Shown piece after piece: positions 5,550 to 43,083 of a stretch of 64,000 bases of DNA. A program made the position numbers and the translations under genes. The notes under the pieces were generated by a model. It did no database searches. It had not been told where the DNA came from and saw nothing but the letters and a program-made list of their open reading frames with translations. Origin of the DNA: a virus (Duplodnaviria; Heunggongvirae; Uroviricota; Caudoviricetes); the IMG/VR virus record IMGVR_UViG_3300031963_006119; one strand, given 5' to 3'. Numbering within the stretch: the first letter of the stretch is position 1; each line of letters opens with the position of its first letter.

Positions 5550-6968
5550 ATGATATTTGCTATCTTACTTGCACTATCCGGCCTAACTCTATCAGCAGTG
5601 GCCATATACTACAGCGTTATAGGTCTTACCGCAGTATTTGCCGCGGCATTTTGGCCCATTGTTGTTATGGGCACTACATTAGAAATATCTAAGTTAGTTG
5701 CCGCAAGTTGGCTCAAAGCATATTGGACTAAGATACCTTTAGGAATGAAAGTGTACATGAGTGCCGCAGTAATAGTACTCATGGTCATTACTAGCATGGG
5801 AATATTTGGTTTCTTAAGCAAAGCACATTTGGATCAAAATATTGTAAGTGGCGATGTCCAAAGCAAGATAGCTATTTACGATGAAAAAATCAAAACGGCA
5901 AAGGACAATATAGATGCGAACCGGAAGGCGCTTAGACAGATGGATGAAGCTGTGGACCAAGTTATGGGTCGAAGCAATGATGAAAAAGGTGCCGACAAAG
6001 CTGTTGCAATCCGAAGAGCACAACAAAAAGAACGTGTCCGCCTTCAATCTGAGATTGCGGCCGAACAGAAAACTATTGCCGCCCTTAGCGAAGAAAGAGC
6101 GCCTATTGCTGCCGAGGTACGCAAAGTTGAAGCAGAAGTAGGCCCAATCAAATACATAGCGGCCCTACTGTACGGAGATAATCCTGATGCTAATTTGCTA
6201 GAACGTGCAGTAACATGGGTTATTATAATAATTGTATTTGTGTTTGACCCACTGGCAATATTAATGTTATTAGGCGCACAGATGACTTGGCAGTGGTATA
6301 GAGAAAATAAAGATAAGTTAAGAGATGAATATGATTTCTCAGACGGTATCAGAGGGCCGATACTAAAAGAAGATGAAGAGCTTCCTACTGTTACAGAACC
6401 TATAGTTTCTCAGCCTGACATAGAAGAAGGCAATCGATTAATAGCAGAGATTGAAAAAGAAGAACTAGAATTTATTGATTTTGACAAGCAAGAATCTGAA
6501 CCAAAAGTAGAAACAATAACTAAGATAGAACAAGAAGAAACTAAAGAAGATCCTCAACCTAAGGTTGAAGCTACCAATGTAGATCAGCCTGAAGATCTGT
6601 CTAAAAAAAAACTTATAGAATCATCGGAAGAATTTCGCCTAACTAAAGAGCAGTTAGATGCTTTAGATAATTTAGAAGAATGGAATCAAGCCAAGCATGA
6701 TTGGAAAGAAGATAATCCAAATCTAAGTCTTAAATTTTTTAAACAACTTTATCTCGATGGCAAGATAAACAAACTTCCCTGGGAAGATTATGTAGGTAGA
6801 GCACAAGCTAAAAAAACCTATATGATGAAGGATAAAGATCAGCAAGTGACTTTGGAAACAGTTGAATCAAACGATGTTGAGCAAAATCCTACTGTGGGAT
6901 ACATACAGAATGAAGAACAAAAAAAACAAACAGCAATCTGGAAAAGCATAAGATCCAAAGATGAGTGA
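5550..6968 (+). CDS. membrane protein with coiled-coil and acidic C-terminal region
   Basis: Multiple N-terminal TM helices, coiled-coil segment, later TM pair, Glu/Lys-rich tail. Confidence 0.5.
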   Translation: MIFAILLALSGLTLSAVAIYYSVIGLTAVFAAAFWPIVVMGTTLEISKLVAASWLKAYWTKIPLGMKVYMSAAVIVLMVITSMGIFGFLSKAHLDQNIVSGDVQSKIAIYDEKIKTAKDNIDANRKALRQMDEAVDQVMGRSNDEKGADKAVAIRRAQQKERVRLQSEIAAEQKTIAALSEERAPIAAEVRKVEAEVGPIKYIAALLYGDNPDANLLERAVTWVIIIIVFVFDPLAILMLLGAQMTWQWYRENKDKLRDEYDFSDGIRGPILKEDEELPTVTEPIVSQPDIEEGNRLIAEIEKEELEFIDFDKQESEPKVETITKIEQEETKEDPQPKVEATNVDQPEDLSKKKLIESSEEFRLTKEQLDALDNLEEWNQAKHDWKEDNPNLSLKFFKQLYLDGKINKLPWEDYVGRAQAKKTYMMKDKDQQVTLETVESNDVEQNPTVGYIQNEEQKKQTAIWKSIRSKDE

Positions 6969-7338
6969 TATTACTTTAGTTACACCACCAGACAAATACT
7001 ACAGCCAGGAATATAGTTTTTTGCTAGTATACCCTAGTGCAGTAATCAAATCTCAGTTCCAAGACCTAATAGAAAGTTTTGATAAACCCGTTATAGTTTA
7101 CCTTTACGAAAAAGAAGACGATCACGAACCTGAATGGTTATTTGATTGTTTTTACAAAGCAGACTGTGTCATATTAGACATTGACAATTGCGATACAAAG
7201 ATTAGAGATCTAGTAGCTTACTTTATAGCCAAAGATAAAACCTATTGGTTGACAAATGGTAGCGATAACTTATATAATATAATCAGTAAGAATAGAATTT
7301 TTAATCTAGACTTTTTATCTGGTAAATTAGGAGATTAG
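6961..7338 (+). CDS. hypothetical protein
   Basis: ORF overlapping previous stop (ATGA); no recognised domain. Confidence 0.45.
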   Translation: MSDITLVTPPDKYYSQEYSFLLVYPSAVIKSQFQDLIESFDKPVIVYLYEKEDDHEPEWLFDCFYKADCVILDIDNCDTKIRDLVAYFIAKDKTYWLTNGSDNLYNIISKNRIFNLDFLSGKLGD

Positions 7339-7339: not shown

Positions 7340-7579
7340 TTGAGGTATCAAAAATCAGAACTTAAAGGACTTCGAGTTGAAGTTCGTAATGATGATGTTA
7401 ACGGAGCTCTACGAAGGTTCAAAAGGAAAGTAGAAGACAGCGGTCTCTTGCAAGATCTTAGAGATAAAGAGTTCTACGAAAAACCAACTACAGCTAGAAA
7501 AAAAGCAAAAGCGGCGGCAAGATCGCGCTGGCTTAAAAAACTATCACAAGATCCTTTTAATATAAAGCCAAGAAAGTAA
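7340..7579 (+). CDS. rpsU: ribosomal protein bS21 homolog (TTG start)
   Basis: VNGALRRFKRKVEDSGLLQDLRDKEFYEKPTTARKKAKAAARSR matches the bS21 signature (LRRFKR...REFYEKPT..RK.AK). Confidence 0.8.
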   Translation: MRYQKSELKGLRVEVRNDDVNGALRRFKRKVEDSGLLQDLRDKEFYEKPTTARKKAKAAARSRWLKKLSQDPFNIKPRK

Positions 7580-9896: not shown

Positions 9897-10202
9897 ATGA
9901 GTACTTTAGCAGATATCCAAATTGACGAAAAAATTAAACAGATCACTCAAGAGCCGGCCAAATACAAAGTTATTTTTATTAACGATGATGTTACCCCAAT
10001 TGAATGGGTAATAGAAGTTTTAGTGAAAACTTTTAAACATAGCCAAACTAGTGCAGAAGCACTTACACTTCAAATTCACAGCGAAGGTAGTGCAGTAGTT
10101 GGTATATACTCATACGAAATTGCAGAACAAAAAAGTGTAGAAACTACTGTAGCTTCAAGAGACAAGGGATTTCCCTTGCAGATTAGGTTAGAAAAAGAAT
10201 GA
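9897..10202 (+). CDS. clpS: ATP-dependent Clp protease adaptor ClpS
   Basis: YKVIFINDDVTPIEWVIEVL...A..L.L.IH.EG.AVVG matches ClpS core. Confidence 0.75.
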   Translation: MSTLADIQIDEKIKQITQEPAKYKVIFINDDVTPIEWVIEVLVKTFKHSQTSAEALTLQIHSEGSAVVGIYSYEIAEQKSVETTVASRDKGFPLQIRLEKE

Positions 10203-10771
10203 GCAATTTAAAAGAACTTACAAAAGAACAACATACAAATGCTGAACGCCAAGCATTTGTAAAAGTTATCGTAAGCGGTAAAATTAATCCCGAACTATAT
10301 GCCACATACTTGTGGAATCAACATAAAAAATATGATCTATTAGAAGCACTTGCAGGCGCACAAGGCCTACTCAGTGATTTACCAGATATCAGACGTAAAC
10401 TGAAAATTGAAGAAGATTTTGCAGAACTTTGGACAAAAGATGTTCAGCCAGTTATAGTACCTAGTACTATAGAATACATCAATCACATGCGAAACATAAT
10501 GATTGATGCTGACGCACTTATGGCACATATCTATGTACTACACATGGGAGATTTAAGCGGCGGCCAAATGATTGCAAAGATGGTTCCTGGTCAAGGTCGA
10601 ATGTATCAGTTCAATACAGACAAAGATAAGCTCAAAGAACTAATTAGAGCTAAGACAAAAGACAGCATGGCCGAAGAAGCAAAGTATGTATTTGAGTCAA
10701 GCACTAAATTATTTCAAGAACTAATGGAGTTAGACATTGAGCATTATTTGGAATCATCTGATCAAGTGTAA
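10199..10771 (+). CDS. heme oxygenase
   Basis: Heme oxygenase signature HMGDLSGGQMI and overall helical HO fold-length (190 aa). Confidence 0.65.
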   Translation: MSNLKELTKEQHTNAERQAFVKVIVSGKINPELYATYLWNQHKKYDLLEALAGAQGLLSDLPDIRRKLKIEEDFAELWTKDVQPVIVPSTIEYINHMRNIMIDADALMAHIYVLHMGDLSGGQMIAKMVPGQGRMYQFNTDKDKLKELIRAKTKDSMAEEAKYVFESSTKLFQELMELDIEHYLESSDQV

Positions 10772-11432
10772 AGACGACATCATAGCAGTTTTTGACCAAC
10801 AGGCTAATGAAGTACACGAAGATGGAATGGAACACTTTAATCAACCCGATTCAGGATGGATTAATAGGGTATGGTCTAATCAGTATGTACGCAGAGCTCA
10901 CATAGATGTAGTTGATGCTAGAGTCACTAAAGGTCTATGGATGATGCATGTATGCGTGTTTCCAGAACTAACCAACGGTGGACCTATATACGGCTTTGAT
11001 GTTATTGCCGGCAAAAATAAGATGACTGGAGCATTCCACGATTTTAGTCCGTCAAGCGGTGGTGCAGATCATCCTATGATATTAGGCTACAAAGATAGTG
11101 TAGAAAATTTTATTCCAAAAAAACAAAGAGAGTTGCCTCAGTGGGCTAAGAATATCTTTACAGACAAAATGTTAGCTGCCGGCAACGTAAACACCGAAGA
11201 AGAAGCAGTTGCAATTATAAACATAGCACTTAACAATCTTCATGCATATTTTGATGAAATCAGCGGATTCCAAAATACATGCGGTGTTGATGAAACCATC
11301 AAAGCACAGAATTGGTACTGTCACAATCAGCGACAGAATCCCCATACTCCTAACGTAATGAAAAGTTTAGGTTTAAATGAAGCAGACGTTGATAAGTTTT
11401 GCACAGACATGCTGTTCCCTAACATCGTATAA
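10737..11432 (+). CDS. ferredoxin-dependent bilin reductase (PebS/PcyA/PcyX-like); start uncertain
   Basis: Sits directly after heme oxygenase as in phage ho1-pebS/pcyX pairs. About 230 aa, right size. Overlaps HO 3' end so the real start may be Met at about 10827. Confidence 0.5.
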   Translation: MSIIWNHLIKCKDDIIAVFDQQANEVHEDGMEHFNQPDSGWINRVWSNQYVRRAHIDVVDARVTKGLWMMHVCVFPELTNGGPIYGFDVIAGKNKMTGAFHDFSPSSGGADHPMILGYKDSVENFIPKKQRELPQWAKNIFTDKMLAAGNVNTEEEAVAIINIALNNLHAYFDEISGFQNTCGVDETIKAQNWYCHNQRQNPHTPNVMKSLGLNEADVDKFCTDMLFPNIV

Positions 11433-13214: not shown

Positions 13215-13661
13215 ATGAAATACATCACAGCATTGGGGGCAATGCTAGTGTTTGCAGGTAGTGCATTCGCTACAGAGCTAATACATAATTTTCAAAGTCC
13301 AGCCTTTATACCAGGCAATGGATTCAGTCAGCACGTCTTGTCAATCCATCAATTAGAAGAATCTAAAAAGAAAGAAATTAAGAGCGAAGAACTGGCTGCT
13401 ATAGCTAAGGCAGAAGCTGCTGCAAAACAAACAAATCTAAGTAAATTCCTTGTTAACGTAGAAGCACGTATCTACGCACAATTGTCTAAACAATTAGCAG
13501 ATCAAATGTTTGCTGAAGGTACAGGAACAAGCGGAACTATGGACTTTCAAGGAACTAATATCAGTTGGGTTAAATCGGCCACAGAAGTAACTCTAACTAT
13601 TATTGAGGCCAACGGTAGCCGAACAGAAATTACTGTACCTATAGCGAGCTTTGCATTTTAA
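13215..13661 (+). CDS. CsgF-like curli assembly protein
   Basis: Signal peptide then NFQSPAFIPGNGFSQ, matching the conserved CsgF N-terminal FQFxNPxF...G motif. About 130-aa mature size as for CsgF. Confidence 0.55.
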   Translation: MKYITALGAMLVFAGSAFATELIHNFQSPAFIPGNGFSQHVLSIHQLEESKKKEIKSEELAAIAKAEAAAKQTNLSKFLVNVEARIYAQLSKQLADQMFAEGTGTSGTMDFQGTNISWVKSATEVTLTIIEANGSRTEITVPIASFAF

Positions 13662-14908
13662 TGAAATTAATATTATCATTGTTACTTGTCACTGTTCTTT
13701 CAGGATGCGCCACCATACACATGGATGCGGCTAGGGAAGATGCTGTGGCTCTAACACCAAGAGAGAGTCTTACTAATAAAATACCACAGTTAGACGGTCC
13801 TCCAATGACCATTGCAGTTTACGGATTCACAGACAAGACAGGACAAATGAAACCTAATGATAGGTTAGCTGTGTTTTCAAAGGCAGTGACACAAGGATCT
13901 GAAGTATTTTTAATCAAAGCACTTCAAGACTCAAAAAATTGGTTTAAAGTTGTAGAGCGTGTGGGATTAGATAACCTTATTAAAGAGCGACAGTTGATAC
14001 GTAATCAACGCGAGGTTTATGAAGGTAAAGATGCTAGACCATTAAAGCCAATGACTGTGGCAGGAATTATGATCGAAGGTGGTATCATTGGCTACGACAG
14101 CAACATACGCAGTGGCGGCAACGGCGCACGATTCTTAGGTATTGGCGGAAGTCAACAATATCGTGTAGATGAAATTGTAATTAGTCTTAGACTAGTAAGT
14201 GTAAACAGTGGGGAAGTATTAATTTCTAATGCTGTGAGCAAAACTATCTATAGCACACAACATAACGTTGGCGTATTAAGATTTGTTGATGCTGGAACCA
14301 AAGCACTAGAATTAGAAAACGGGCAGGCTCTAAATGAACCTACAACATATGCTGTTCGTGTTGCTATAGAACAAGCAGTATATGACATGATCATTGAAGG
14401 CGAAAAGAAAGGAATGTGGAGATTTAAAAAATCTGTAACACAAGAAGTGCCTGTAGTAAAGGAGGAAAAGAAAGATGAGCTGGTTCAACCACAAACCTCA
14501 CAAGCACCCCAAGGAGCCCCAGAGCCCTTACCACCCGCACCGATCGAGCCCGTCAAGCAAGAAAGCAATGGAGCAAGCCAAACAGTCGAGCCCAAAGCAG
14601 AAAAAATAACAAGGATAGTTCCTATACAACCAGAACATTTAGTAGTTGTAGAAAAAGTAGAAACAAATACAAATACTGCTCCAGTAGTTAAGCCACCCGC
14701 TCAATTGTGGAGTTCTAGATATCTTAAAGAAGATTCGTTTGTATACAAAGAACCAAATGAAAAAAGTCAACGAACATGGCAATTGAAAAAGGGAACAGAA
14801 TTTAATATCATTTCTCCAGGTCCGGAGGGGTGGCATTATGTAGTAGACGCAGAGAAGCGTAAGGGGTATGTGCGAGCTGACGTGCTTTCAGAACACAGAC
14901 CAAAATGA
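13661..14908 (+). CDS. csgG: CsgG-family curli secretion channel lipoprotein with C-terminal Pro-rich linker and SH3b-like domain
   Basis: Lipobox LSGCAT. IMIEGGIIGYDSNIRSGGNGARFLGIGGSQQYRVDEIVISLRLVSVNSGEVL is near-identical in pattern to the E. coli CsgG core. Extra about 140 aa with PxP linker and W...GYV SH3b-like end. Confidence 0.8.
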   Translation: MKLILSLLLVTVLSGCATIHMDAAREDAVALTPRESLTNKIPQLDGPPMTIAVYGFTDKTGQMKPNDRLAVFSKAVTQGSEVFLIKALQDSKNWFKVVERVGLDNLIKERQLIRNQREVYEGKDARPLKPMTVAGIMIEGGIIGYDSNIRSGGNGARFLGIGGSQQYRVDEIVISLRLVSVNSGEVLISNAVSKTIYSTQHNVGVLRFVDAGTKALELENGQALNEPTTYAVRVAIEQAVYDMIIEGEKKGMWRFKKSVTQEVPVVKEEKKDELVQPQTSQAPQGAPEPLPPAPIEPVKQESNGASQTVEPKAEKITRIVPIQPEHLVVVEKVETNTNTAPVVKPPAQLWSSRYLKEDSFVYKEPNEKSQRTWQLKKGTEFNIISPGPEGWHYVVDAEKRKGYVRADVLSEHRPK

Positions 14909-17778: not shown

Positions 17779-18068
17779 GAAAAATATTATTAATTTTATT
17801 AGTTTGTTTGTCTAGCACAGTCAATGCACAATTTAGATATGATTATCCCTTGTTGTGTGACAGTACTGAAAAGATCATAAAAAGCCTTGGGGAAAATTAT
17901 AAAGAAATATTAACCTGGGGCGGAAAGCATTCTAGTGATAATAGTGCCTACAGTTTATGGATCAATGAAAAAGAAGGATCTTGGACATTACTTAAAATGA
18001 CTCCTGAAACTAGTTGCATACTAGGAGTAGGCACAGAATCTAAAATTAAACTAGGTACGTCAATATAA
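17775..18068 (+). CDS. small secreted protein
   Basis: Signal peptide MRKILLILLVCLSSTVNA; internal Met start overlapping upstream stop. Confidence 0.45.
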   Translation: MRKILLILLVCLSSTVNAQFRYDYPLLCDSTEKIIKSLGENYKEILTWGGKHSSDNSAYSLWINEKEGSWTLLKMTPETSCILGVGTESKIKLGTSI

Positions 18069-20113
18069 TGATTAAAAAAATACTTTTAAGTCCATGGACT
18101 GCTCTATTAACTCTAGCGTTAGTAGTAGGCATACGAATAGCAGATCCTACATTCGTTGAAAGTGTAAGACTACGCTACTTTGATACATTAATTACTTCTA
18201 AAGCACCTACAGAAAATAACATCTATACAGTTAACATAGACGAAGCTGCTTTAGACAAATACGGCCAATGGCCATTACCCAGGGCAGAATATGCTAAAAT
18301 TATTAAAGATTTGTATGATCGTGGTGCTGGCCTTGTCGTTCTCAATGTGCTTATGGCTGAGCCTGATCGCACTGGTGGCGACTCAACTCTTGCCTCAGCT
18401 CTTAAACAATATCCTGTAGTACTAGGATCAGTGCCTGCTGATAAAACTAAAAATATACCACGCAACCCAGGCAGTGCTGTACTAGGGCCAGAGTGGTTAG
18501 ATCAAATTGTACAATACCCGGGCCTTATTGCTAACGTACCGCAGTTAGAAAATTCAGCAGCAGGAATTGGTATTGTATCAACTATGCCTGAAGTTGACGG
18601 AGTGAATCGTCGATTACCTCTTATCGTTGCAGTTGGCGATAAACTTTATCCTAGCATAGCTATGGAAACACTGCGAGTAGCAGCTGGCGATTCAACCTTT
18701 CAAATCAAACTTTTTGAAGGCGGTGTTGAAAAAATGCGTATACCTAAGTTTGGTCCTGTTACTACAGATAACTTAGGTCGGGTATGGATTGATTGGAGTC
18801 AACAAAGTAAAAATGTTAGTTTACTTGAGTTGCCTAAAAACCTAGATGGTGCTATTGTTATTGTTGGTCCAACCGCAGCTGGTATCAGTAATCCTGTACC
18901 AACCAGTATGGGTGCTGTATTCCCACATGCTGTGCAGGCTAGTGTTATTGCTACAATGATTAACGGTATAGTTATACAGAGACCAGATTATGCCAACGGT
19001 GTAGAAATCTTAACACTAGTATTAGCAGGTATACTATTATTATTCTTAACAAGGTGGACTTATGTTGGTATTATTTCAGGTGTTGTTATTATTGGGACTA
19101 GTGTATTCGCTGGCTCCTATGCTTATGCACAGTTTAGTTGGCTCTTCGATTCAACTGGTATTGTGGTCGGGCTTGTTCTGGTTATGCTTCATGCTTATGG
19201 CATTAAGTTTATAAGCGAGTTCTTACAGAAACAAGCAATCAAGAAACAATTTGCAGGCTATGCTAGCCCTACAGTAGTTAGACTGTTACAAGAAAATCCA
19301 GACTTAATTAAGAAGGGTGTTAAGAAAGAAGTCAGTATACTGTTCTCAGACTTACGCGGCTTTACACCCTTAGGTGAAAGTTTTGGAGATGACGTTGCAG
19401 GTCTTACAAAAATAATGAACGGCTACATGGATGCCATTACACAACCTGTACTAGATGCAGACGGTATGATTATTAAGTACATTGGTGATGCTAGTATGCA
19501 TATACATAATGCACCTATTGAAGATTTGAACCATCCTGCTACAGCAGTACGCACAGGATTGAAGATGCTTAAAGCAGTGGAGAAATTTAATGAAGAAATC
19601 ATTATACCTCAAGGAAGACCTGCCGTTGGCATGGGTGCTGGTATTAATACAGGGTTGGGATATATTGGAGAGATGGGATCAACTGCAAGACACAGCTACG
19701 ATGTACTAGGTGATGCTGTTAGTACTGCTGCCCGTATTGAAAGTAAATGTAAAGAGTATGGATGCTTGTTGCTAGTTGGCGGCGCAACAGTTGATCGCTG
19801 TGGAGATGACTTCTTCTTCCTTAAGATTGATGATCTTGCTGTAAAAGGTAAGAGTGTAGGAATTGCTATCTATACAGTATTAGATGATATCACTGATACG
19901 TATCATGTTGCTAAAAAAATACACGAATCAATGCACGGTGCATACAGAGGACAAAAGTTTAGTACGGCTATTAGCATGTGTAAACAACTAAAAGGTCAGT
20001 TTGACGGCAAAATGGACAAGTATTACGACATGTGGATAGAGCGTTGTGAGTTCCAGCAGACTCAAACTCTACCTAAAGATTGGAACGGCGTTTTTATAGC
20101 GACAAGTAAATAA
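18068..20113 (+). CDS. membrane CHASE2-sensor class III adenylate/guanylate cyclase
   Basis: N-terminal TM, periplasmic CHASE2-like region, 3-4 TM helices. Cyclase catalytic core ILFSDLRGFTPLGE...YIGDASM...GINTGLGYIGEMGS. Confidence 0.7.
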   Translation: MIKKILLSPWTALLTLALVVGIRIADPTFVESVRLRYFDTLITSKAPTENNIYTVNIDEAALDKYGQWPLPRAEYAKIIKDLYDRGAGLVVLNVLMAEPDRTGGDSTLASALKQYPVVLGSVPADKTKNIPRNPGSAVLGPEWLDQIVQYPGLIANVPQLENSAAGIGIVSTMPEVDGVNRRLPLIVAVGDKLYPSIAMETLRVAAGDSTFQIKLFEGGVEKMRIPKFGPVTTDNLGRVWIDWSQQSKNVSLLELPKNLDGAIVIVGPTAAGISNPVPTSMGAVFPHAVQASVIATMINGIVIQRPDYANGVEILTLVLAGILLLFLTRWTYVGIISGVVIIGTSVFAGSYAYAQFSWLFDSTGIVVGLVLVMLHAYGIKFISEFLQKQAIKKQFAGYASPTVVRLLQENPDLIKKGVKKEVSILFSDLRGFTPLGESFGDDVAGLTKIMNGYMDAITQPVLDADGMIIKYIGDASMHIHNAPIEDLNHPATAVRTGLKMLKAVEKFNEEIIIPQGRPAVGMGAGINTGLGYIGEMGSTARHSYDVLGDAVSTAARIESKCKEYGCLLLVGGATVDRCGDDFFFLKIDDLAVKGKSVGIAIYTVLDDITDTYHVAKKIHESMHGAYRGQKFSTAISMCKQLKGQFDGKMDKYYDMWIERCEFQQTQTLPKDWNGVFIATSK

Positions 20114-21712: not shown

Positions 21713-21903
21713 CTGCTATTTTTCTTTATTGATTCCTTCAATGATCGTTATTAAAAAATACAATGAAAAACTGCTGGATAGTAGTTGATTTCTATTGTAA
21801 ATACATGTATAATAAACTTGTTCAGGTAGAAAACTCAGTATTTACACTGAGGTAATTTTAAACTGATAATTATTATTTCATGACACACACTAAGGAGAAG
21901 TAT

Positions 21904-22443
21904 ATGAAAACAGTTGGTGATAAACTAGAAAAATTTGCAGTCACAGGTGTTAAGCCAGGACAACCAGAAGATGCGTTCTTTGAAATTACAGACGAGAGTT
22001 TTGCAGGAAAATGGAAAGTAATCGTTTACTATCCAAAAGATTTTACATTTGTTTGCCCTACAGAAATTGTAGCCTACGACAAATTGGCACAAGACTTTGC
22101 TGATCGCGATGCAGTATTGCTCACAGGTAGCACAGACAATGAGTTCTGCAAAGTTAGCTGGCAAAATGCTCACGCAGATCTAAAGAAAATTACTCATACA
22201 CAATTTGCTGATACACAGCGTGGCGAGTTGAGCTTGATTGAACAGTTGGGCGTGTTCTACGCACCAGCAGGTGCCGCACTTCGTGCAACATTCATCGTTG
22301 ATCCAAACAATGAAATCCAACACGTTACTGTTAACAACTTAAACGTTGGTCGTAGCCCAGAAGAAACACTTCGTGTATTGGATGCGCTACAAACTGGCGA
22401 ACTTTGCGCTTGTAATCGCACAGTCGGGGGAGAGACTCTATAA
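21904..22443 (+). CDS. peroxiredoxin (AhpC/TSA family)
   Basis: RBS AAGGAGAAG. Peroxidatic motif DFTFVCPTEI. Resolving Cys near C-terminus (GELCAC). Confidence 0.75.
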   Translation: MKTVGDKLEKFAVTGVKPGQPEDAFFEITDESFAGKWKVIVYYPKDFTFVCPTEIVAYDKLAQDFADRDAVLLTGSTDNEFCKVSWQNAHADLKKITHTQFADTQRGELSLIEQLGVFYAPAGAALRATFIVDPNNEIQHVTVNNLNVGRSPEETLRVLDALQTGELCACNRTVGGETL

Positions 22444-22856
22444 TGTTAGACTGCCTAATAGTAGGTGATAGCATTGCAGTTGGTACAGCAATGGCTAGAC
22501 CAGAGTGCGTAAGTTATTCAAAAGGTGGATGGAACAGTTGGCAATGGAACAAAGATTATTTGTCTAAAGCCTCCTCACAACCTGCTAAAACTATTATTAT
22601 TAGTCTAGGAGCCAATGATCACAAAGGCGTCAAGACAGAAGCAGAACTTCGTAAAATGCGAGAAGCTGTTAAGGGCGATCGAGTATTTTGGATTGACCCT
22701 GGACAAGATCGTAAACCTATTCCGCACGATGCTATTGTACGCATTGCCAAAGAATACGGTGATGTGATATTGCCTAGACCAAAAAGCCATATGAGTGCAG
22801 ACGGAATCCATCCTACTGGACGTGGATATAAAATCTTAGGAGATCAAACACGATGA
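22443..22856 (+). CDS. SGNH/GDSL-like hydrolase
   Basis: N-terminal block IVGDSIAVG (GDS(L)-type), about 137 aa. Confidence 0.45.
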   Translation: MLDCLIVGDSIAVGTAMARPECVSYSKGGWNSWQWNKDYLSKASSQPAKTIIISLGANDHKGVKTEAELRKMREAVKGDRVFWIDPGQDRKPIPHDAIVRIAKEYGDVILPRPKSHMSADGIHPTGRGYKILGDQTR

Positions 22857-23359
22857 GTTTTATTGAAACAATAAAAGGCGCACTACCAGACTATGCAAAG
22901 GATACCAAGTTAAATCTTGATGCTGTTTTAGTACGCAGTACACTAGACGCAGATGTAGCCTTGGGTTGTGCTGTGGCTGCACTAGCCGCAACAGGTAACG
23001 GCAAGGTACTAAGCATCCTGTTAGCAGATGCTCCTGTACATGCAGAGTCAGCAATGACAGCCGCAAGCATTATGGCACAGAACAACGTGTGGTACCCATT
23101 CGTTGAGATGGCTGATGATCCTGCACTCAAAGGATTGCCTGCTCAGTTACGTATGAACGCTATTGCAAGTCACGGCGGAACAACTAAAGCAAACTTTGAA
23201 GCATTTAGTTTGGCTGCTAGTATTGTGGGCAAGTGTCACTTCTGTGTTAAGGCACATTACGAGACATTGAAGACAGAAGGATACACTGTTGAACAGCTTC
23301 GTGACATTGGTCGTATTGCTAGTGTGATGAACTCAGTTGCTAAGGTTTTGAATAGCTAA
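22853..23359 (+). CDS. AhpD-family alkylhydroperoxidase / carboxymuconolactone decarboxylase-like protein
   Basis: CxxC-type core KCHFCVKAH as in AhpD. Follows the peroxiredoxin gene. Confidence 0.55.
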   Translation: MSFIETIKGALPDYAKDTKLNLDAVLVRSTLDADVALGCAVAALAATGNGKVLSILLADAPVHAESAMTAASIMAQNNVWYPFVEMADDPALKGLPAQLRMNAIASHGGTTKANFEAFSLAASIVGKCHFCVKAHYETLKTEGYTVEQLRDIGRIASVMNSVAKVLNS

Positions 23360-23473
23360 TTTCACGATAGTGAATTAATGATTTTCACTATGTACTTTAG
23401 GTAGTTTTGTCAGTATAATGTTTATAAGTACTAATGCAAGACAGTACTTATTTCATTAACAAGGAGAACTATT

Positions 23474-23545
23474 ATGTGGACAACACCAACAGCAACTGAT
23501 ATGCGTTTTGGTTTCGAAATCACAATGTACGTGATGAATCGTTAA
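23474..23545 (+). CDS. pqqA: PqqA-like 23-aa precursor peptide
   Basis: RBS AAGGAGAA 7 nt upstream. MWTTPTATDMRFGFEITMYVMNR versus the canonical PqqA [23 protein letters not shown]: W2, P5, D9, R11, G13, E15, T17, Y19 and NR end conserved. Followed by terminator. Confidence 0.6.
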   Translation: MWTTPTATDMRFGFEITMYVMNR

Positions 23546-23562
23546 TAGTAAAAATGTTCTAG

Positions 23563-23597
23563 AAAGCTGCCCCACTTCGGTGGGGTTCTTTTTGACT
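23563..23597 (+). terminator. rho-independent terminator
   Basis: AAAGCTGCCCCAC-TTCG-GTGGGGTTCTTTTT. Confidence 0.65.
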
Positions 23598-24184: not shown

Positions 24185-24406
24185 ATGGAGAAAAAAATGG
24201 AAGAAAAAGAAGCTAAACGCTGGGTATTTAAAGCAGAGGATATTTTTGAGGACATTCCCACAGATCCTGAGAACTGTCTAATGAAAATTCCTGAAGAAGT
24301 ATCTAATGCTATAGGGCTAGCACCTGGCGATCGAGTAAAAGTTTTATGGGGTGATCAGGGCACTATTATTATAGAAAAGGCAAAAGAAACAGATGCCAAA
24401 GAATGA
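24185..24406 (+). CDS. hypothetical small acidic protein
   Basis: RBS GGAGAAAAAAATG; 73 aa. Confidence 0.4.
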   Translation: MEKKMEEKEAKRWVFKAEDIFEDIPTDPENCLMKIPEEVSNAIGLAPGDRVKVLWGDQGTIIIEKAKETDAKE

Positions 24407-24614
24407 CGATCTACTAGAAGTTGAGGGCGAAATAGTAGAGGTTTTACCAAATCAAACATTTAACGTACTATTAGATGTGAACAAAAGCATGATTGTCTGC
24501 TACACCAGCGGACGTATGCGTCAAAACAAAATCCGATTAGTAGCAGGAGATCGTGTAAAAGTAGAAATGAGCTCATACGATCTATCCAAAGGACGTATTT
24601 CATTCCGTATATAA
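24393..24614 (+). CDS. infA: translation initiation factor IF-1 homolog
   Basis: LEVEGEIVEVLPNQTFNVLLDVNKSMIVCYTSGRMRQNKIRLVAGDRVKVEMSSYDLSKGRISFR aligns along its length with bacterial IF-1 (S1-like OB fold; ..G.V.E.LPN..F.V.L.NG......SGKMR.N.IR...GD.V.VE...YDLSKGRI.FR). Confidence 0.8.
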   Translation: MPKNDDLLEVEGEIVEVLPNQTFNVLLDVNKSMIVCYTSGRMRQNKIRLVAGDRVKVEMSSYDLSKGRISFRI

Positions 24615-40170: not shown

Positions 40171-40243
40171 TCCTCAGTAGCACAGCGGTAGTTGCACTTG
40201 ACTGTTAATCAAGGTGTCCGTGGTTCGATCCCACGCTGAGGAG
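40171..40243 (+). tRNA. tRNA-Asn (GTT)
   Basis: Manual cloverleaf: acceptor TCCTCAG/CTGAGGA, anticodon loop CTGTTAA, T-loop GGTTCGATCC, CCA encoded. Confidence 0.75.
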
Positions 40244-40251
40244 CCAATTTA

Positions 40252-40338
40252 GGAGCGTGGGCCGGATGGTAAGGCAGCGGTTTGCTAAACCGTAGATCAC
40301 GTAAAAAGGGTCACAGGGTTCGACTCCCTGACGCTCCG
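40252..40338 (+). tRNA. tRNA-Ser (GCT), long variable arm
   Basis: Acceptor GGAGCGT/ACGCTCC, anticodon loop TTGCTAA, 87 nt with extra arm, CCA encoded. Confidence 0.7.
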
Positions 40339-40349
40339 CCAAATTAAAT

Positions 40350-40421
40350 GCACGATTCGTCTATCGGTTAGGACGCTGCCCTTTCAAGGCGGAAAGACGA
40401 GTTCGATTCTCGTATCGTGTA
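40350..40421 (+). tRNA. tRNA-Glu (TTC)
   Basis: Acceptor GCACGAT/ATCGTGT, anticodon loop CTTTCAA, T-loop TTCGATT. Confidence 0.7.
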
Positions 40422-40680
40422 CCAAGTTTTTTAGTAAGTTGTTTAAGGTTACCTAGTCCGCTAGGGGTGAACGAAAAGGTGATTGCGTAGCAGAAATGCT
40501 CGGCCTTGATACCCATGAAGCAGGAGGGTTCTAGAGTATGACGAGACACCATCGAGTCAAAGGGCAAGAACTATTCCAAACTCCAGGAAGGCGGCGGAAC
40601 TACTAGGCCTGTAATGAGGTCTTGACGCAAGTTGGTGATGCGTGTCAAGAACTTCCTCAAACAATTTATTAAAGATTTTG

Positions 40681-40754
40681 CACCGTTAGCTCAGTTGGTT
40701 AGATCGCTTGCCTGTCACGCAAGAGGCCAGGGGTTCGAGTCCCCTACGGTGCGC
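40681..40754 (+). tRNA. tRNA-Asp (GTC)
   Basis: GCACCGTTAGCTCAGTTGGTTAGA..., anticodon loop CTGTCAC, GGTTCGAGTCC, CCA. Confidence 0.8.
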
Positions 40755-40809
40755 CATATTAGTTGACTTTGATTGTAAAGAGTGTACAATTAAAATATAG
40801 AAAGTTTTT

Positions 40810-40880
40810 GCCCTTATAGTTAAATGGTATAACGACGGTTTTGTAATCCGTAGTTTGCAGTTCGATTCTGTGTAGGGGCA
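40810..40880 (+). tRNA. tRNA-Thr (TGT)
   Basis: Acceptor GCCCTTA/TAGGGGC, anticodon loop TTTGTAA, CCA. Confidence 0.7.
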
Positions 40881-40897
40881 CCAAAGTGTTAGTTTTT

Positions 40898-40978
40898 GCC
40901 CCGGTGGTGTAATGGTAGCCACGCTGGTCTTAGAAGCCAGTGCCGCAAGGCGTGTCGGTTCGAGTCCGACCTGGGGCA
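40898..40978 (+). tRNA. tRNA-Leu (TAG), long variable arm
   Basis: Acceptor GCCCCGG/CTGGGGC, anticodon loop CTTAGAA, variable arm TGCCGCAAGGCGTGT, CCA. Confidence 0.75.
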
Positions 40979-40991
40979 CCAATGTTAGTAA

Positions 40992-41062
40992 GCGGGATTA
41001 GTTTAATGGTAAAACAGCAGATTTCCAATCTTCGGTCATCAGTTCGATTCTGATATCCCGCT
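40992..41062 (+). tRNA. tRNA-Gly (TCC)
   Basis: Acceptor GCGGGAT/ATCCCGC, anticodon loop TTTCCAA, CCA. Confidence 0.7.
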
Positions 41063-41081
41063 CCAATTTTAAAAGGTAGAT

Positions 41082-41306
41082 ATGAAAGCAAAAACTTTAA
41101 GTCGTGGTCCAACTATTGATACTAATAAATGTGTTGAAAATGTTGGTGGTAGATTTGATCTAGTATTAATTGCTTCAGTTAGAGCTAGAGAAATAGCAAG
41201 GAAACACAGGAACGACGAAATGTCTACCCAAGTTAATGCGCCAGTTTCTGCACTGCTTGAAATTCAAGAAGGCAAAATTGGTAGAGAGTATCTAAGAAAA
41301 GTATAA
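41082..41306 (+). CDS. rpoZ: DNA-directed RNA polymerase omega subunit homolog
   Basis: RBS AAAAGG. VENVGGRFDLVLIASVRAREIARK matches the RpoZ signature (GNRFDLVLVAARRARQ). 74 aa. Embedded between tRNA genes. Confidence 0.6.
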   Translation: MKAKTLSRGPTIDTNKCVENVGGRFDLVLIASVRAREIARKHRNDEMSTQVNAPVSALLEIQEGKIGREYLRKV

Positions 41307-41327
41307 TCGGAGTGTGGCGCAGTCTGG

Positions 41328-41402
41328 CTAGCGCACCTGGTTTGGGACCAGGGGGTCCAAGGTTCGAATCCTTGTACTCCGACCATTTTTTGGGCTGTTA
41401 GT
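41328..41402 (+). tRNA. tRNA-Pro (TGG)
   Basis: C1-G72 start CGGAGTG as in bacterial tRNA-Pro, anticodon loop TTTGGGA, CCA. Confidence 0.75.
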
Positions 41403-41411
41403 GATAATGGG

Positions 41412-41483
41412 AGCACGGGGCCTTTGCAAGGCTTAGGTCGGGGTTCGATCCCCCGACGGTCCACCAAATATGCGGGTATGATG
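41412..41483 (+). tRNA. tRNA-Ala (TGC)
   Basis: Acceptor with G3:U70 wobble (Ala identity), anticodon loop TTTGCAA, T-arm CGGGGTTCGATCCCCCG, CCA. Confidence 0.7.
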
Positions 41484-41491
41484 TAATGGTA

Positions 41492-41562
41492 ACCTGAAAC
41501 CTTGCCAAGGTTTATTCGCGAGTTCGATTCTCGCTACCCGCTCCAAATGTTTTAGAAATATT
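41492..41562 (+). tRNA. tRNA-Gly (GCC)
   Basis: Acceptor GCGGGTA/TACCCGC, anticodon loop TTGCCAA, CCA. Confidence 0.75.
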
Positions 41563-41594
41563 TTTAAAAAGATGTTGACAAGACAGTAAAAATT

Positions 41595-41623
41595 TGCTAA
41601 AATAGACACATGTTAAGAATTTA
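41595..41623 (+). promoter_or_regulatory. consensus sigma70 promoter TTGACA-17-TAAAAT driving ORF-free region
   Basis: TTGACA 41595-41600, TAAAAT 41618-41623. Confidence 0.5.
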
Positions 41624-41629
41624 AGGGTG

Positions 41630-42830
41630 GTTTATCATCCTGTAGGCGGCTTGCCGTTTACAAAGAATAAGTGTGGCGACACACCCAAAGCTAGAATGCC
41701 TACATACTAGCGCCAGCAATGGTTCACGTAAACAAGCCTGCTCACTACCGCGAGGTAGCGTTCACTCATAAGACCGGTGGATGTAACAGCAAAGCTGATG
41801 TATGGGAAAGAACATTGTTCGACGTGCCGCAAGGAACACGGGGCAGTGAAAAGTAACAGGTGGTGCTGACTTCCATATAAAACCAATCAGTTAGTTGGTA
41901 TGAGAAAGGGTAGTGTACTTGTTCGAGGGGTCGCACCTAAGAGCTCGTATACAATGTAAATGGTTAGTGGGCTGTAGTAATACAGTACACCGATCGTGAA
42001 ACATCACTGAGTAGCTCGCGAGGCAAAAGGTATGTGGTGAGTTGTATTTTGTATTCCAAAAGAGTATGAAGCAACTGAGGCAGCTCATCGCGGTAGGTTA
42101 ATGTAGATCAATGGTAGATCATCTTCCTGTTAAGAAGAATGCTGTCGGTTCAAATCCGATCATTTAAACAAAAATGCAAAGACTGCCTCGGTCGTATGTG
42201 AAAAGTATCTAATACTTGAGTGGTAACACAATCAAGTCTAATGAAGCTCGCAAGGTAACATTAGTTTATACTGGAAGTTTCGTAGGGTGTTAGCGCACTC
42301 GAATAGCTCGCAAGGTTAACGGAATAGATGGTGTAGAATAGCATATGGCGTCAAGTCTACTGCCTGACTTAAAACGGCGATACTGTAAGCAGACTAGGTT
42401 ACATAGTGATATGGACTTAGTGGATGTCTAGAGAACGTATACTCGCAAGGTGTACGGTAATGCTAGAGGTGCTTATGGTTAAGATGTAATCTCAGTCTTA
42501 ACACTATTCTAAAACACATTACCACAAACAGCAATTAGAGCTGGTTGTATAACAATGTCGTAGTGTGTTTCAGAATAGCAGAAATGTTATGCACATGACA
42601 ATTCGTTGTCAGCAAGAGAATGTCACGCTATAAAGGTTTCTTCGAAGGACTGATATAGTAGAAGGGGACGGGTTCAACTCCCGGCTGATCGGAAGATCGG
42701 CGCAGATTGGTTGCTAACTGGACTAGTATCCCAAGTGACGTACCGAGTCCCGCTCGAGCTTGTTAATTCGGGTGAATGGTGCTTATAACGATGGAAGTAC
42801 TAATGAGTTGTCAGCTGTATAATATTTTGA
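41630..42830 (+). ncRNA. promoter-driven ORF-free structured region (candidate large ncRNA) with repeated CTCGCAAGG motifs, degenerate tRNA-like segment and tmRNA-like T-arm
   Basis: No + strand ORF in 1.2 kb of a gene-dense genome. Motif [A/G]CTCGC[A/G]AGG at 42013, 42245, 42305, 42441. tRNA-like 42097-42167. GGGGACGGGTTCAACTCCCGGCTGATCGG at 42664-42692. Confidence 0.35.
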
Positions 42831-42906
42831 AGCGGAGTAGAGGAGTCCAGTCGTCCTCGCTAGTCTCATAAGCTAGAGATCGCAGGTGCGAATCCTGCCT
42901 CCGCAA
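42831..42906 (+). tRNA. tRNA with CAT anticodon (Met or lysidine-Ile2), A1/A72 mismatch
   Basis: Anticodon stem-loop CTAGT-CTCATAA-GCTAG, T-arm GCAGGTGCGAATCCTGC, CCA; long D-loop. Confidence 0.6.
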
Positions 42907-42923
42907 CCAGTTTTATTTTCAAA

Positions 42924-43010
42924 GGAAGCGTGGCAGAGCCCGGCTTATTGCGTTAGTCTTGAAAACTAAAGACTCGAAAGGGTCCGTGAGTTCGAATCTC
43001 ACCGCTTCCG
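42924..43010 (+). tRNA. tRNA-Ser (TGA), long variable arm
   Basis: Acceptor GGAAGCG/CGCTTCC, anticodon loop CTTGAAA, 87 nt, CCA. Confidence 0.7.
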
Positions 43011-43028
43011 CCAGACATTAAAAAATAC

Positions 43029-43057
43029 TTGACAAGTAGACACAAATCATATACAAT
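43029..43057 (+). promoter_or_regulatory. sigma70-like promoter TTGACA-17-TACAAT
   Basis: TTGACA 43029-43034, TACAAT 43052-43057, RBS AAAAGGA before ATG 43084. Confidence 0.5.
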
Positions 43058-43083
43058 TAACACATAGAGAAAAGGACACAAAC

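What the first reader, a model, noticed from the sequence alone, without database searches (positions are those of the whole stretch)
23474..23545. Orphan PqqA-like 23-aa precursor peptide gene with strong RBS and its own terminator
MWTTPTATDMRFGFEITMYVMNR matches the PQQ precursor peptide PqqA ([23 protein letters not shown]) at W2, P5, D9, R11, G13 and the E15-x3-Y19 pair that is cross-linked by PqqE, plus the NR terminus. No pqqBCDE is adjacent; neighbours are AhpC, AhpD-like, GDSL hydrolase and a 2OG oxygenase. A stand-alone pqqA in a phage could supply extra substrate to a host PQQ pathway, or be a RiPP precursor processed by other phage enzymes. The only radical SAM in the window, at 1176-3113, is a B12-binding class B type, not PqqE-like.
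Basis: partly seen in the sequence, partly recalled or inferred. Interest (0 to 1): 0.65.

Follow-up and report, generated by a model that had tools for sequence, protein, structure and literature searches.

The report
Phage-borne PQQ precursor peptide gene
A large freshwater phage carries a real, self-contained gene for PqqA, the 23-residue peptide that its methanol-eating host consumes to make the cofactor PQQ; this kind of viral helper gene was reported once before, but here it also turns up, unannotated, in every cultured phage of these bacteria.

Summary
ORF 23474-23545(+) encodes MWTTPTATDMRFGFEITMYVMNR, which scores well above the curated cut-offs of both PqqA models (Pfam 38.7 vs 21.1 bits; TIGR02107 37.7 vs 20). 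It has an AAGGAG ribosome-binding site, a triple stop and an intrinsic terminator.

The peptide is of the Methylophilaceae type. Intact pqqA ORFs occur in all nine cultured Methylophilales/Methylophilaceae phage genomes that the search found in the phage collection. They also occur in at least 587 IMG/VR contigs. In every phage record hit the gene is unannotated or annotated on the wrong strand.

The viral copies are under strong purifying selection (dN/dS about 0.07). None of the loci examined has pqqB-E nearby. Host genomes also scatter orphan pqqA copies.

The best explanation is an auxiliary metabolic gene. The phage supplies the consumable precursor, and the host's PqqD/E/B/C convert it to PQQ for methanol dehydrogenase.

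The alternative, a peptide processed by phage enzymes, is not supported. The B12 radical SAM enzyme is absent from relatives that keep pqqA.

A viral PqqA in methylotroph phages was already reported from Lake Baikal in 2020, so this is a new member of a known kind. Function remains untested.

The parts
23375..23391 (+). Conserved upstream element TTAATGATTTTCACTAT, a half-palindromic operator-like site. It lies 22 nt upstream of the -10 box and travels with pqqA in phages. A related site occurs upstream of host pqqA.
   Evidence: The element is unique in the window. It aligns across about 25 phage cassettes. TAATGAT is the most frequent 7-mer in viral upstream regions, in 33 of 74 at a median of -89. 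Host copies have the related palindrome CTAATGAaAATCATTAG at about -120. The binding factor is unknown.
23414..23419 (+). Probable -10 promoter hexamer TATAAT, with no good -35 hexamer.
   Evidence: Read from the sequence. (G)TATAAT is aligned at the same place in most related cassettes. The consensus scan did not list it because the -35 is weak. The promoter assignment is inferred.
23424..23451 (+). 5' leader hairpin: a 9-bp stem (ATAAGTACT / AGTACTTAT) with a 10-nt loop, at or near the predicted mRNA 5' end.
   Evidence: It appears in both the MFE and the centroid fold of 23424-23596. Hairpins of different sequence sit at the same place in other phage copies. Across 67 unique viral leaders the mean folding z-score is -1.28, and 28% fall below -2.
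23461..23466 (+). Shine-Dalgarno sequence AAGGAG, 7 nt before the ATG.
   Evidence: Read from the sequence. An SD-like motif is present in 73 of 77 viral and 82 of 84 host copies.
23474..23545 (+). pqqA coding sequence, 23 codons plus stop: MWTTPTATDMRFGFEITMYVMNR. The cross-link residues are E15 and Y19.
   Evidence: The identical ORF is in the same phage from four other metagenomes. dN/dS is 0.066 among 66 unique viral sequences.
23569..23593 (+). Intrinsic terminator: GC-rich hairpin with a TTCG loop followed by TTCTTTTT.
   Evidence: A terminator-like hairpin lies within 90 nt of the stop in 43 of 72 viral and 69 of 78 host copies, against about 3 expected from shuffles.
21880..23359 (+). 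Context only: AhpC (21880-22443), small SGNH/GDSL-like hydrolase (22443-22856) and AhpD (22853-23359), immediately upstream.
   Evidence: AhpC and AhpD lie beside pqqA in L012, L014 and L041, and on the same contig 2-5 kb away in L018 and L051. The SGNH protein lies on the same locus as pqqA in 14 related viral loci, within about 1 kb in 12 of them and on either side. A functional link is not shown.

Best explanation
This is a genuine pqqA gene carried by a large lytic-type phage whose host is very probably a member of the Methylophilaceae, betaproteobacteria that live on methanol. It acts as an auxiliary metabolic gene.

Proposed mechanism:
1. Host RNA polymerase transcribes a short monocistronic mRNA of about 170 nt. 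The unit has a -10 TATAAT box with an upstream operator-like site, a 5' hairpin, a strong ribosome-binding site, 23 codons, a triple stop and an intrinsic terminator.
2. The peptide is the sacrificial substrate of PQQ synthesis. Each PQQ molecule is built from the Glu15 and Tyr19 side chains of one PqqA molecule.
3. The phage encodes none of the enzymes. The peptide must therefore be bound by host PqqD, cross-linked by host PqqE, trimmed by a host protease, hydroxylated by PqqB and oxidised by PqqC.
4. The benefit would be a continued or increased supply of PQQ for periplasmic methanol dehydrogenase (XoxF/MxaF) while host transcription declines. That keeps energy and C1 flux available for phage replication. 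The logic resembles cyanophage psbA, where the phage carries the component that turns over fastest.

Shown here: the gene's identity, its expression signals, its conservation and selection in phages, the absence of pqqB-E from the phage loci, and the multi-copy orphan habit of host pqqA.

Inferred: expression during infection, processing by host enzymes, and the fitness benefit.
For: - **Family identity.** Pfam and TIGRFAM PqqA hits are far above the cut-offs. W2, P5, R11, G13, E15 and Y19 are present.
- **Host type.** The closest genomic peptides are overwhelmingly from Methylophilaceae (Methylotenera, Methylopumilus, Methylophilus, Methylobacillus). Their consensus is MWTTPAATEMRFGFEVTMYVMNK, which sources name PqqA of Ca. 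Methylopumilus / Methylophilaceae.
- **Distribution in isolated phages.** A blastn search hit only the pqqA stretch, in four phage isolates of Methylophilales or Methylophilaceae, each with an intact 23-aa ORF in an unannotated gap. tblastn of the peptide against 50,697 phage records hit P19250A, Venkman, MEP301, MEP401, MEP402, four Melnitz isolates and one spring-water podovirus. The only other hits were two mislabelled bacterial contigs.
- **Distribution in metagenomes.** At least 587 IMG/VR contigs carry a close relative.
- **Selection.** dN/dS is 0.066 with pS 0.57 among 66 unique viral sequences. E15 and Y19 are invariant.
- **No phage-encoded enzymes.** There are no pqqB-E homologs in the window or in 84 viral loci with flanks. 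The reference proteins were verified as PqqB/C/D/E equivalogs.
- **Host habit.** Only about 11 of 84 genomic copies lie in a pqqABCDE cluster. The rest are orphan and some are tandem. The literature reports 3-12 pqqA copies but a single pqqBCDE in Methylophilaceae (PMC4109929). It also reports orphan copies highly expressed when PQQ synthesis peaks (PMC9851590).
- **Self-contained unit.** A ribosome-binding site, a leader hairpin and a terminator are common to phage and host copies.
- **Published precedent.** PqqA was reported in a Methylophilaceae virus from Lake Baikal and interpreted the same way (PMC7678222).
Against: - No expression, peptide or PQQ measurement exists for any phage copy.
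- PQQ is a catalytic cofactor, not consumed in turnover. Extra synthesis during a short infection pays only if new apo-dehydrogenase is being made or PQQ is lost. No methanol dehydrogenase gene is in this 64-kb window.
- The host of this particular phage is inferred only from the peptide type. The window's variant (D9, I16, R23) is not identical to any of the best 80 genomic copies, and the nearest differs at 9 of 69 nt.
- The comparison loci were retrieved with peptide motifs, which inflates apparent amino-acid conservation in columns 9-23.
- Some 'genome' orphan copies in MAGs may be mis-binned phage contigs. For example, L106 has a phage-like neighbour.
Confidence: 0.72

Rival explanations
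1. The peptide is a RiPP precursor processed by the phage's own enzymes into something other than PQQ. Candidates are the B12-binding radical SAM protein at 1176-3113, the 2OG-Fe(II) oxygenase just downstream, or the small SGNH hydrolase.
For: The window does encode a class B radical SAM protein with weak similarity to RiPP C-methyltransferases (ApyD and TIGR03975 hits, far below their cut-offs). A 2OG oxygenase-like gene starts 82 nt after pqqA. The SGNH protein lies within about 1 kb of pqqA in 12 of 14 related loci, on either side.
Against: - The radical SAM gene is 20 kb away and has no homolog in any of 80 viral pqqA loci.
- Relatives L008, L017, L018, L020, L021 and L041 have its two flanking genes adjacent without it and still keep pqqA.
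- The downstream 2OG oxygenase also has no homolog in those loci.
- Sipho-, podo- and myovirus isolates of 35-141 kb carry pqqA. No homolog of the radical SAM, the downstream 2OG oxygenase or the SGNH protein appeared in the 2.5-kb flanks examined for four of them.
- The peptide keeps every hallmark of the canonical PQQ substrate, and the host-type sequence is retained.
- No SGNH homolog lies near host pqqA.
Confidence: 0.05
2. The gene serves PQQ production for redox or oxidative-stress management rather than for methanol oxidation. PQQ would act as an antioxidant, working alongside the adjacent AhpC/AhpD peroxiredoxin pair.
For: AhpC and AhpD lie beside pqqA in the window, L012, L014 and L041, and 2-5 kb from it in L018 and L051. 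In several host genomes an orphan pqqA lies next to an OxyR-like LysR regulator or glutathione synthetase. From established biochemistry, the PqqC step releases H2O2.
Against: Other relatives have AhpC-AhpD without pqqA within 6 kb. The phage isolates examined carry pqqA with no AhpC or AhpD homolog in their 2.5-kb flanks. Among phages the gene is restricted to those of methylotrophs. It is absent from the many sequenced phages of other PQQ-making bacteria, which points to methanol dehydrogenase as the beneficiary.
Confidence: 0.1
3. The sequence is kept for a reason other than its peptide product. It could be a patch of homology for recombination or integration at host pqqA loci, an RNA or operator decoy, or a neutral hitch-hiker recently copied from the host.
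For: Nucleotide identity of 80-87% between otherwise unrelated phages is confined to the 80-nt pqqA stretch. Eight IMG/VR copies are identical at nucleotide level to a genomic copy. The host-type operator is retained.
Against: - Synonymous sites are close to saturation while the peptide is conserved (pS 0.57, pN 0.07). That is the signature of selection on the protein, not on the DNA.
- Start codon, ribosome-binding site, stop position and terminator are all kept.
- Host neighbours of orphan pqqA are OxyR-like, MltA, GshB and oxidoreductase genes, not integrases.
- The gene is present in the Melnitz myovirus isolates (Kyanoviridae) and in this large phage, which carries a tRNA array.
- No Rfam family matches.
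Confidence: 0.06
4. The phage peptide is a competitive decoy. It would occupy host PqqD/PqqE and shut down host PQQ synthesis.
For: The window's lineage has its own variant (D9, I16, R23), not seen in the best 80 genomic copies.
Against: E15 and Y19 are invariant in all 66 unique viral sequences, although loss of either alone would still have been retrieved by the other search motif. From my recollection of other PqqA sequences, the three variant residues occur in bona fide PqqA of other bacteria; Thauera has D9, I16 and a C-terminal R. Phage P19250A's peptide is identical to the host consensus.
Confidence: 0.03

Closest known systems
PqqA, the PQQ precursor peptide (Pfam PF08042, TIGR02107), specifically the Methylophilaceae type MWTTPAATEMRFGFEVTMYVMNK
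   Same: Same length of 23 aa and the same motif W2-x2-P5 ... R11-x-G13-x-E15-x3-Y19. It shares the family-specific M10 and the V20-M21-N22 tail. It has the same monocistronic layout with a ribosome-binding site and its own terminator, and a related upstream operator. Like most host copies it is orphan, not next to pqqBCDE.
   Different: It is encoded by a phage. It differs from the host consensus at positions 6 (T), 9 (D), 16 (I) and 23 (R). This D9/I16/R23 variant was found only on viral contigs of the window's lineage among the sequences retrieved.
PqqA reported in a T4-like Methylophilaceae virus from Lake Baikal (population VP_266; Coutinho et al. 2020, PMC7678222)
   Same: The same kind of gene in the same kind of virus (large, freshwater, predicted Methylophilaceae host). 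The proposed role is also the same: boosting PQQ supply for methanol dehydrogenase.
   Different: The Baikal populations were reported at 35% GC and also carry a methanol dehydrogenase gene. This window is 38-41% GC over most of its length (up to 44% at the tRNA array) and has no methanol dehydrogenase in its 64 kb. I could not compare the sequences directly. That paper suggested viral radical SAM proteins might act in PQQ synthesis. Here the viral radical SAM is a B12 class B enzyme unrelated to PqqE and not linked to pqqA.
Cyanophage psbA (D1 protein) and similar auxiliary metabolic genes
   Same: The phage carries only the fast-consumed component of a host energy-harvesting system and relies on the host for the rest of the machinery. 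This is an analogy from established knowledge.
   Different: Here the product is a 23-residue sacrificial peptide turned into a small-molecule cofactor, not a protein subunit. No infection-time expression data exist.
Unannotated pqqA ORFs in cultured methylophages (P19250A, Venkman, MEP301, MEP401/402, Melnitz)
   Same: Intact 23-24-aa PqqA ORFs with 68-83% identity to the window peptide. All are orphan, and the phages belong to several taxonomically distinct groups.
   Different: Their peptides are closer to the host consensus (E9, V16, K23). Their genomes share nothing else with the window at nucleotide level. The isolate papers held in the searchable library do not mention a phage pqqA.

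Membership tests
PqqA (PF08042 / TIGR02107) | Score above the curated cut-off of the family models | tested here: met
   Pfam gives 38.7 bits against 21.1. TIGR02107 gives 37.7 bits against 20. Both matches span the full model length.
PqqA (PF08042 / TIGR02107) | Short ribosomal peptide (about 20-40 aa) with the Glu-x3-Tyr pair that becomes PQQ | tested here: met
   The peptide is 23 aa with E15 and Y19. Both residues are invariant in 66 unique viral and 65 unique genomic sequences.
PqqA (PF08042 / TIGR02107) | Conserved leader residues used for recognition (W2, P5, R11, G13) | tested here: met
   All four are present and invariant across phage and host copies. Their role in PqqD binding comes from the literature and was not tested.
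PqqA (PF08042 / TIGR02107) | Location directly upstream of pqqBCDE | tested here: not met
   No PqqB-E homolog is in the window or in 84 viral loci. This feature does not define the family in Methylophilaceae. Only about 11 of 84 genomic copies are in a pqqABCDE cluster, and 3-12 copies per genome are reported (PMC4109929).
PqqA (PF08042 / TIGR02107) | Converted to PQQ by PqqD/E/B/C | not testable with these tools
   This needs an in vitro cross-linking assay or genetic complementation.
Viral auxiliary metabolic gene | Host-derived metabolic gene inside a phage genome, flanked by phage genes | tested here: met
   The window carries a 28-tRNA array, RNR, DNA ligase, endonuclease VII, S21 and other phage-typical genes. 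The same gene order is found on metagenomic contigs of up to 317 kb. pqqA is also present in phage isolates.
Viral auxiliary metabolic gene | Maintained by selection in the virus | tested here: met
   dN/dS is 0.066. A lineage-specific variant is shared by the relatives of this phage. There is an ascertainment caveat because loci were retrieved by peptide motif.
Viral auxiliary metabolic gene | Expressed during infection and altering host metabolism | not testable with these tools
   Only sequence signals are available: the -10 box, ribosome-binding site, leader hairpin and terminator.
Phage-autonomous RiPP cluster (precursor plus phage maturase) | Co-occurrence of the precursor with a dedicated maturase gene | tested here: not met
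   Neither the B12 radical SAM gene nor the downstream 2OG oxygenase has a homolog at any of 80 other viral pqqA loci. The radical SAM protein is not PqqE-like.

The most novel reading that the evidence does not exclude
pqqA may be a near-universal, so far overlooked signature gene of phages that infect Methylophilaceae. It is kept by several unrelated phage groups: siphoviruses, Zobellviridae podoviruses, a Kyanoviridae myovirus and this very large freshwater phage. It comes with a host-type operator resembling a Fur box, so the phage copy may remain under a host regulator. If so, it would serve as a host-prediction marker for methylotroph phages. It would also be a directly testable case of a virus supplying a sacrificial cofactor precursor, because host-phage pairs are already in culture.
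Probability: 0.45. Interest if true: 0.6.

Novelty: new member of a known kind. Interest (0 to 1): 0.5.

Why it matters
Methylophilaceae (the OM43, LD28 and Methylotenera groups) are major consumers of methanol in oceans and lakes. Their methanol dehydrogenases depend on PQQ.

A phage gene that feeds the PQQ pathway would mean viruses tune the first step of C1 oxidation in these abundant bacteria. The gene is only 72 nt long, so gene callers miss it. It is absent from the gene calls on four metagenomic copies of this phage. It is unannotated or called on the wrong strand in the phage records I inspected. The exact peptide is not in a 15-billion-protein collection. Surveys of viral auxiliary genes therefore undercount it.

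Several phage isolates carrying the gene, and their hosts, are in culture, so the hypothesis can be tested directly. The near-exclusive link to methylotroph phages also makes the gene a practical marker for assigning hosts to uncultured viral contigs.

Tried and rejected
- **Pairing with the B12 radical SAM enzyme (1176-3113).** Rejected. It is a KedN5-like class B methyltransferase type. BLASTP against host PqqE finds only the CxxxCxxC motif. It is absent from all other viral pqqA loci, and relatives have its flanking genes joined without it.
- **Integration site (attP) idea.** The genes next to orphan host pqqA are OxyR-like regulators, MltA, GshB and an oxidoreductase, not integrases. Rejected.
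- **IMG/VR hits as host pqqABCDE contamination.** Rejected for the 80 loci examined, since none has a PqqB-E hit. The two 'Acinetobacter phage MD-2021a' records, however, are bacterial pqqABCDE contigs.
- **Known RNA family in the region.** None in Rfam.
- **Host identification through AhpC homologs.** The search returned only metagenomic relatives of the same phage group, with no organism names. It led nowhere.
- **Close isolated relative of the window phage.** There is no megablast hit for the first 25 kb. The DNA ligase is only about 33% identical to those of SPO1-like phages.
- **Counting independent genomic contexts.** Single-linkage clustering of flanks merged 64 of 84 loci through mosaic genes and was uninformative.
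- **Fur-box reading of the upstream operator.** Matches to the recalled E. coli consensus are enriched over shuffles. I found no literature link between pqqA and Fur and had no way to test binding. It is left unexplained.
- **Failed call.** One search failed on a length limit.

Full report
**1. The observation**

The ORF is real and lies at the stated coordinates. ATG is at 23474 and TAA at 23543-23545, followed in frame by TAG and TAA. The translation is MWTTPTATDMRFGFEITMYVMNR. AAGGAG lies at 23461-23466, 7 nt upstream of the ATG. A GC-rich hairpin with a TTCG loop and a T run lies at 23569-23593.

Against Pfam the peptide hits only PqqA (PF08042): E = 9.3e-10, 38.7 bits, gathering cut-off 21.1. 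Against NCBIfam it hits only TIGR02107, the PqqA equivalog model: 37.7 bits, cut-off 20. These E-values survive correction for the one to two thousand small ORFs (my estimate) of a 64-kb window.

**2. The genome it sits in**

The window carries 28 tRNA genes at 40171-47509. Nearly all its genes are on one strand. Pre-computed domain hits on identical metagenomic contigs show the following:

- ribonucleotide reductase, DNA ligase, endonuclease VII and UvdE;
- ribosomal protein S21, IF-1 and an RNA polymerase omega-like protein;
- ClpP, ClpS and HSP20;
- CsgF/CsgG;
- heme oxygenase plus a bilin reductase;
- a CHASE2-cyclase and AhpC/AhpD.

The same gene order occurs on contigs from many freshwater metagenomes. 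The longest is 316,657 bp. There is no close relative among 50,697 deposited phage genomes. It is therefore a large, uncultured freshwater phage.

On four metagenomic copies the gene callers left the pqqA position empty, although the ORF is there and identical. The exact peptide is absent from a collection of about 15 billion predicted proteins.

**3. Is it conserved elsewhere?**

A sensitive blastn search of 3.5 kb around the ORF against the phage collection returned four hits. All were confined to the pqqA stretch, and all were in isolated phages of methylotrophs: MEP301, Venkman, MEP401 and P19250A. In each, the match falls in an unannotated gap and contains an intact 23-aa PqqA ORF.

A tblastn search of the peptide at E <= 1 found 12 records:

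- the same four phages, MEP402 and four Melnitz isolates;
- one podovirus genome from Manatee Spring;
- two 'Acinetobacter phage' contigs that are in fact bacterial pqqABCDE loci.

In Melnitz and in the spring podovirus the annotated 'hypothetical protein' is on the opposite strand. In the four phages the ORF lies in an unannotated gap, and the table lists no feature for MEP402.

No phage of any other PQQ-producing host was hit. The search was sensitive enough to find an Acinetobacter-type PqqA at 59% identity.

**4. Which host, and how hosts use pqqA**

The same scan of one genome per prokaryotic species returned at least 587 loci. The best 80 are almost all Methylophilaceae: Methylotenera, Methylopumilus, Methylophilus and Methylobacillus. 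Two Thauera genomes are also among them.

The host consensus MWTTPAATEMRFGFEVTMYVMNK accounts for 65 of the 84 genomic copies retrieved. Sources name it PqqA of Ca. Methylopumilus / Methylophilaceae. It is identical to the peptide of phage P19250A.

The window peptide shares the family-specific M10 and the V20-M21-N22 tail. It has T6, D9, I16 and R23. Among the retrieved sequences this variant, and close ones, are found only on viral contigs related to the window. That indicates long residence in this phage lineage.

In the host genomes only about 11 of 84 copies sit in a pqqABCDE cluster. The rest are orphan and some are in tandem (PqqB-E identity confirmed). This agrees with Beck et al. 2014, who report 3-12 pqqA copies but a single pqqBCDE in Methylophilaceae (PMC4109929). 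It also agrees with reports that orphan copies can be the most highly expressed when PQQ synthesis peaks (PMC9851590). An orphan pqqA is therefore the normal way these bacteria raise precursor supply.

**5. Selection and anatomy**

Among 66 unique viral coding sequences pS is 0.57 and pN is 0.068, giving dN/dS of 0.066. The invariant residues are M1, W2, T3, P5, A7, M10, R11, G13, F14, E15 and Y19.

There is a caveat. The loci were retrieved by one of two peptide motifs, which inflates conservation in columns 9-23. However, loss of E15 or of Y19 alone would still have been retrieved through the other motif, and columns 1-8 were unconstrained.

The gene is a self-contained unit:

- **Ribosome-binding site.** An SD-like motif is present in 73 of 77 viral and 82 of 84 host copies.
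- **Terminator.** A terminator-like hairpin lies within 90 nt in 43 of 72 viral and 69 of 78 host copies, against about 3 expected.
- **Leader hairpin.** A hairpin follows the -10 box, at 23424-23451 in the window. It recurs with different sequences in other phage copies.
- **Upstream element.** TTAATGATTTTCACTAT lies at 23375-23391, 22 nt before TATAAT at 23414-23419. It is unique in the window, yet it travels with pqqA across phages. It resembles the palindrome CTAATGAaAATCATTAG upstream of host copies.

The upstream element resembles the Fur-box core as I recall it. Matches are enriched over shuffles, but I could not test binding and found no literature link.

**6. What it does not have**

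tblastn with verified host PqqB, C, D and E found nothing in the window, in 80 IMG/VR loci with up to 10 kb of flank, in four isolate loci, or in the metagenomic copies. The phage therefore depends on host enzymes.

The B12-binding radical SAM protein at 1176-3113 is a class B methyltransferase type. It shares only the CxxxCxxC motif with PqqE. It has no homolog at any other viral pqqA locus, and six relatives have its two flanking genes joined without it. The downstream 2OG oxygenase likewise has no homolog at those loci. The phage-autonomous RiPP reading is therefore not supported.

One loose end remains. A 137-aa SGNH/GDSL-like protein (22443-22856, with GDS, GxND and DxxH motifs) occurs on the same locus as pqqA in 14 related viral loci. 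In 12 of them it lies within about 1 kb, on either side. It is not found near host pqqA. This may be conserved neighbourhood rather than function.

**7. Mechanism proposed**

Host RNA polymerase makes a short, stable, monocistronic mRNA. The peptide is bound by host PqqD, cross-linked between E15 and Y19 by PqqE, trimmed, hydroxylated by PqqB and oxidised by PqqC. The resulting PQQ is loaded into periplasmic XoxF/MxaF methanol dehydrogenase.

One peptide is consumed per PQQ molecule, whereas the enzymes are reused. The precursor is therefore the component whose supply collapses first when host transcription stops. That would explain why phages carry only pqqA.

The gene's identity, signals, conservation and dependence on host enzymes are shown. 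Expression, processing and benefit are inferred. The main objection is that PQQ is not consumed in catalysis. Extra synthesis matters only if new apo-enzyme is made or the cofactor is lost, and this window has no methanol dehydrogenase gene.

**8. Comparison with what is known, and novelty**

Coutinho et al. 2020 (PMC7678222) reported a PqqA gene in a T4-like Methylophilaceae virus from Lake Baikal and proposed the same role. The kind is therefore known, and this is a new member.

I did not find two points in the searchable literature. Moon et al. 2017 on P19250A was not searchable.

- Every cultured methylophage genome that the peptide search found carries the gene, unannotated.
- The phage copies keep a host-type upstream operator.

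These points raise the value somewhat and make the hypothesis testable with host-phage pairs already in culture.

**9. Verdict**

The kind is known and the interest is moderate. Confidence that this is a true PqqA is about 0.95. Confidence that it works as a precursor-supplying auxiliary metabolic gene is about 0.7.

Noticed in passing
window 23375-23391; host loci such as L108, L150, L120 at about 120 nt upstream of pqqA: A palindromic operator-like motif is shared by phage and host pqqA upstream regions: TAATGA-N3-TCAyTA, with the host consensus CTAATGAaAATCATTAG. It resembles the Fur-box core as I recall it. Matches of 14 or more of 19 positions occur in 12-17% of copies against about 1% of shuffles. 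The regulator is unknown.
   Followed up: partly
window 22443-22856; L005-L009, L017, L018, L020, L021, L026, L041: A 137-aa minimal SGNH/GDSL-like hydrolase (GDS, GxND and DxxH motifs) lies within about 1 kb of pqqA in 12 of 14 related viral loci, sometimes upstream and sometimes downstream. No homolog lies near host pqqA. It is unclear whether this reflects functional coupling or conserved neighbourhood.
   Followed up: partly
window 1176-3113: The B12-binding class B radical SAM gene (KedN5-like, 243 bits but far below that model's cut-off) looks like an insertion. Six related phage contigs have its flanking genes (702-1166 and 3406-4014) adjacent without it.
   Followed up: partly
window 40171-47509: An array of 28 tRNA genes covers most amino acids. 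An RNA polymerase omega (Rpb6/RpoZ)-like ORF at 41082-41306 is embedded between tRNA-Gly and tRNA-Pro.
   Followed up: partly
window 24393-24614 and 7340-7579: The phage encodes a translation initiation factor IF-1 homolog (71.6 bits) and a ribosomal protein S21 homolog. Together these suggest it remodels host translation.
   Followed up: partly
window 10199-11432: Heme oxygenase and a ferredoxin-dependent bilin reductase sit side by side. This pair is best known from cyanophages, yet here it is in a phage whose pqqA points to a non-photosynthetic methylotroph host.
   Followed up: no
window 13215-14908 and 18068-20113: CsgF/CsgG curli-secretion homologs are present, as reported for pelagimyophages and Melnitz. 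A 681-aa CHASE2-sensor adenylate/guanylate cyclase is also present, with a 50%-identical copy near pqqA on L057.
   Followed up: no
L172 (Melnitz MZ577097 76134-76208), L173 (MW202481), L001-L004: In the deposited methylophage genomes I inspected, pqqA is either unannotated or overlapped by a spurious opposite-strand 'hypothetical protein'. Two 'Acinetobacter phage MD-2021a' records in the phage collection are bacterial chromosome fragments carrying pqqABCDE.
   Followed up: yes
host loci L146, L121, L148, L150 (about 6150-7130), L088: In several Methylophilaceae genomes an orphan pqqA lies convergent with an OxyR-like LysR regulator, and in one case next to glutathione synthetase. In the phage it lies next to AhpC/AhpD. 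This may hint at a link between PQQ and peroxide stress.
   Followed up: no
L106, L135 (genome-contig loci): Some short MAG contigs carrying 'orphan' pqqA also carry homologs of window phage genes (orf 3406-4014 and the CHASE2 cyclase). They may be phage contigs binned into bacterial MAGs.
   Followed up: no
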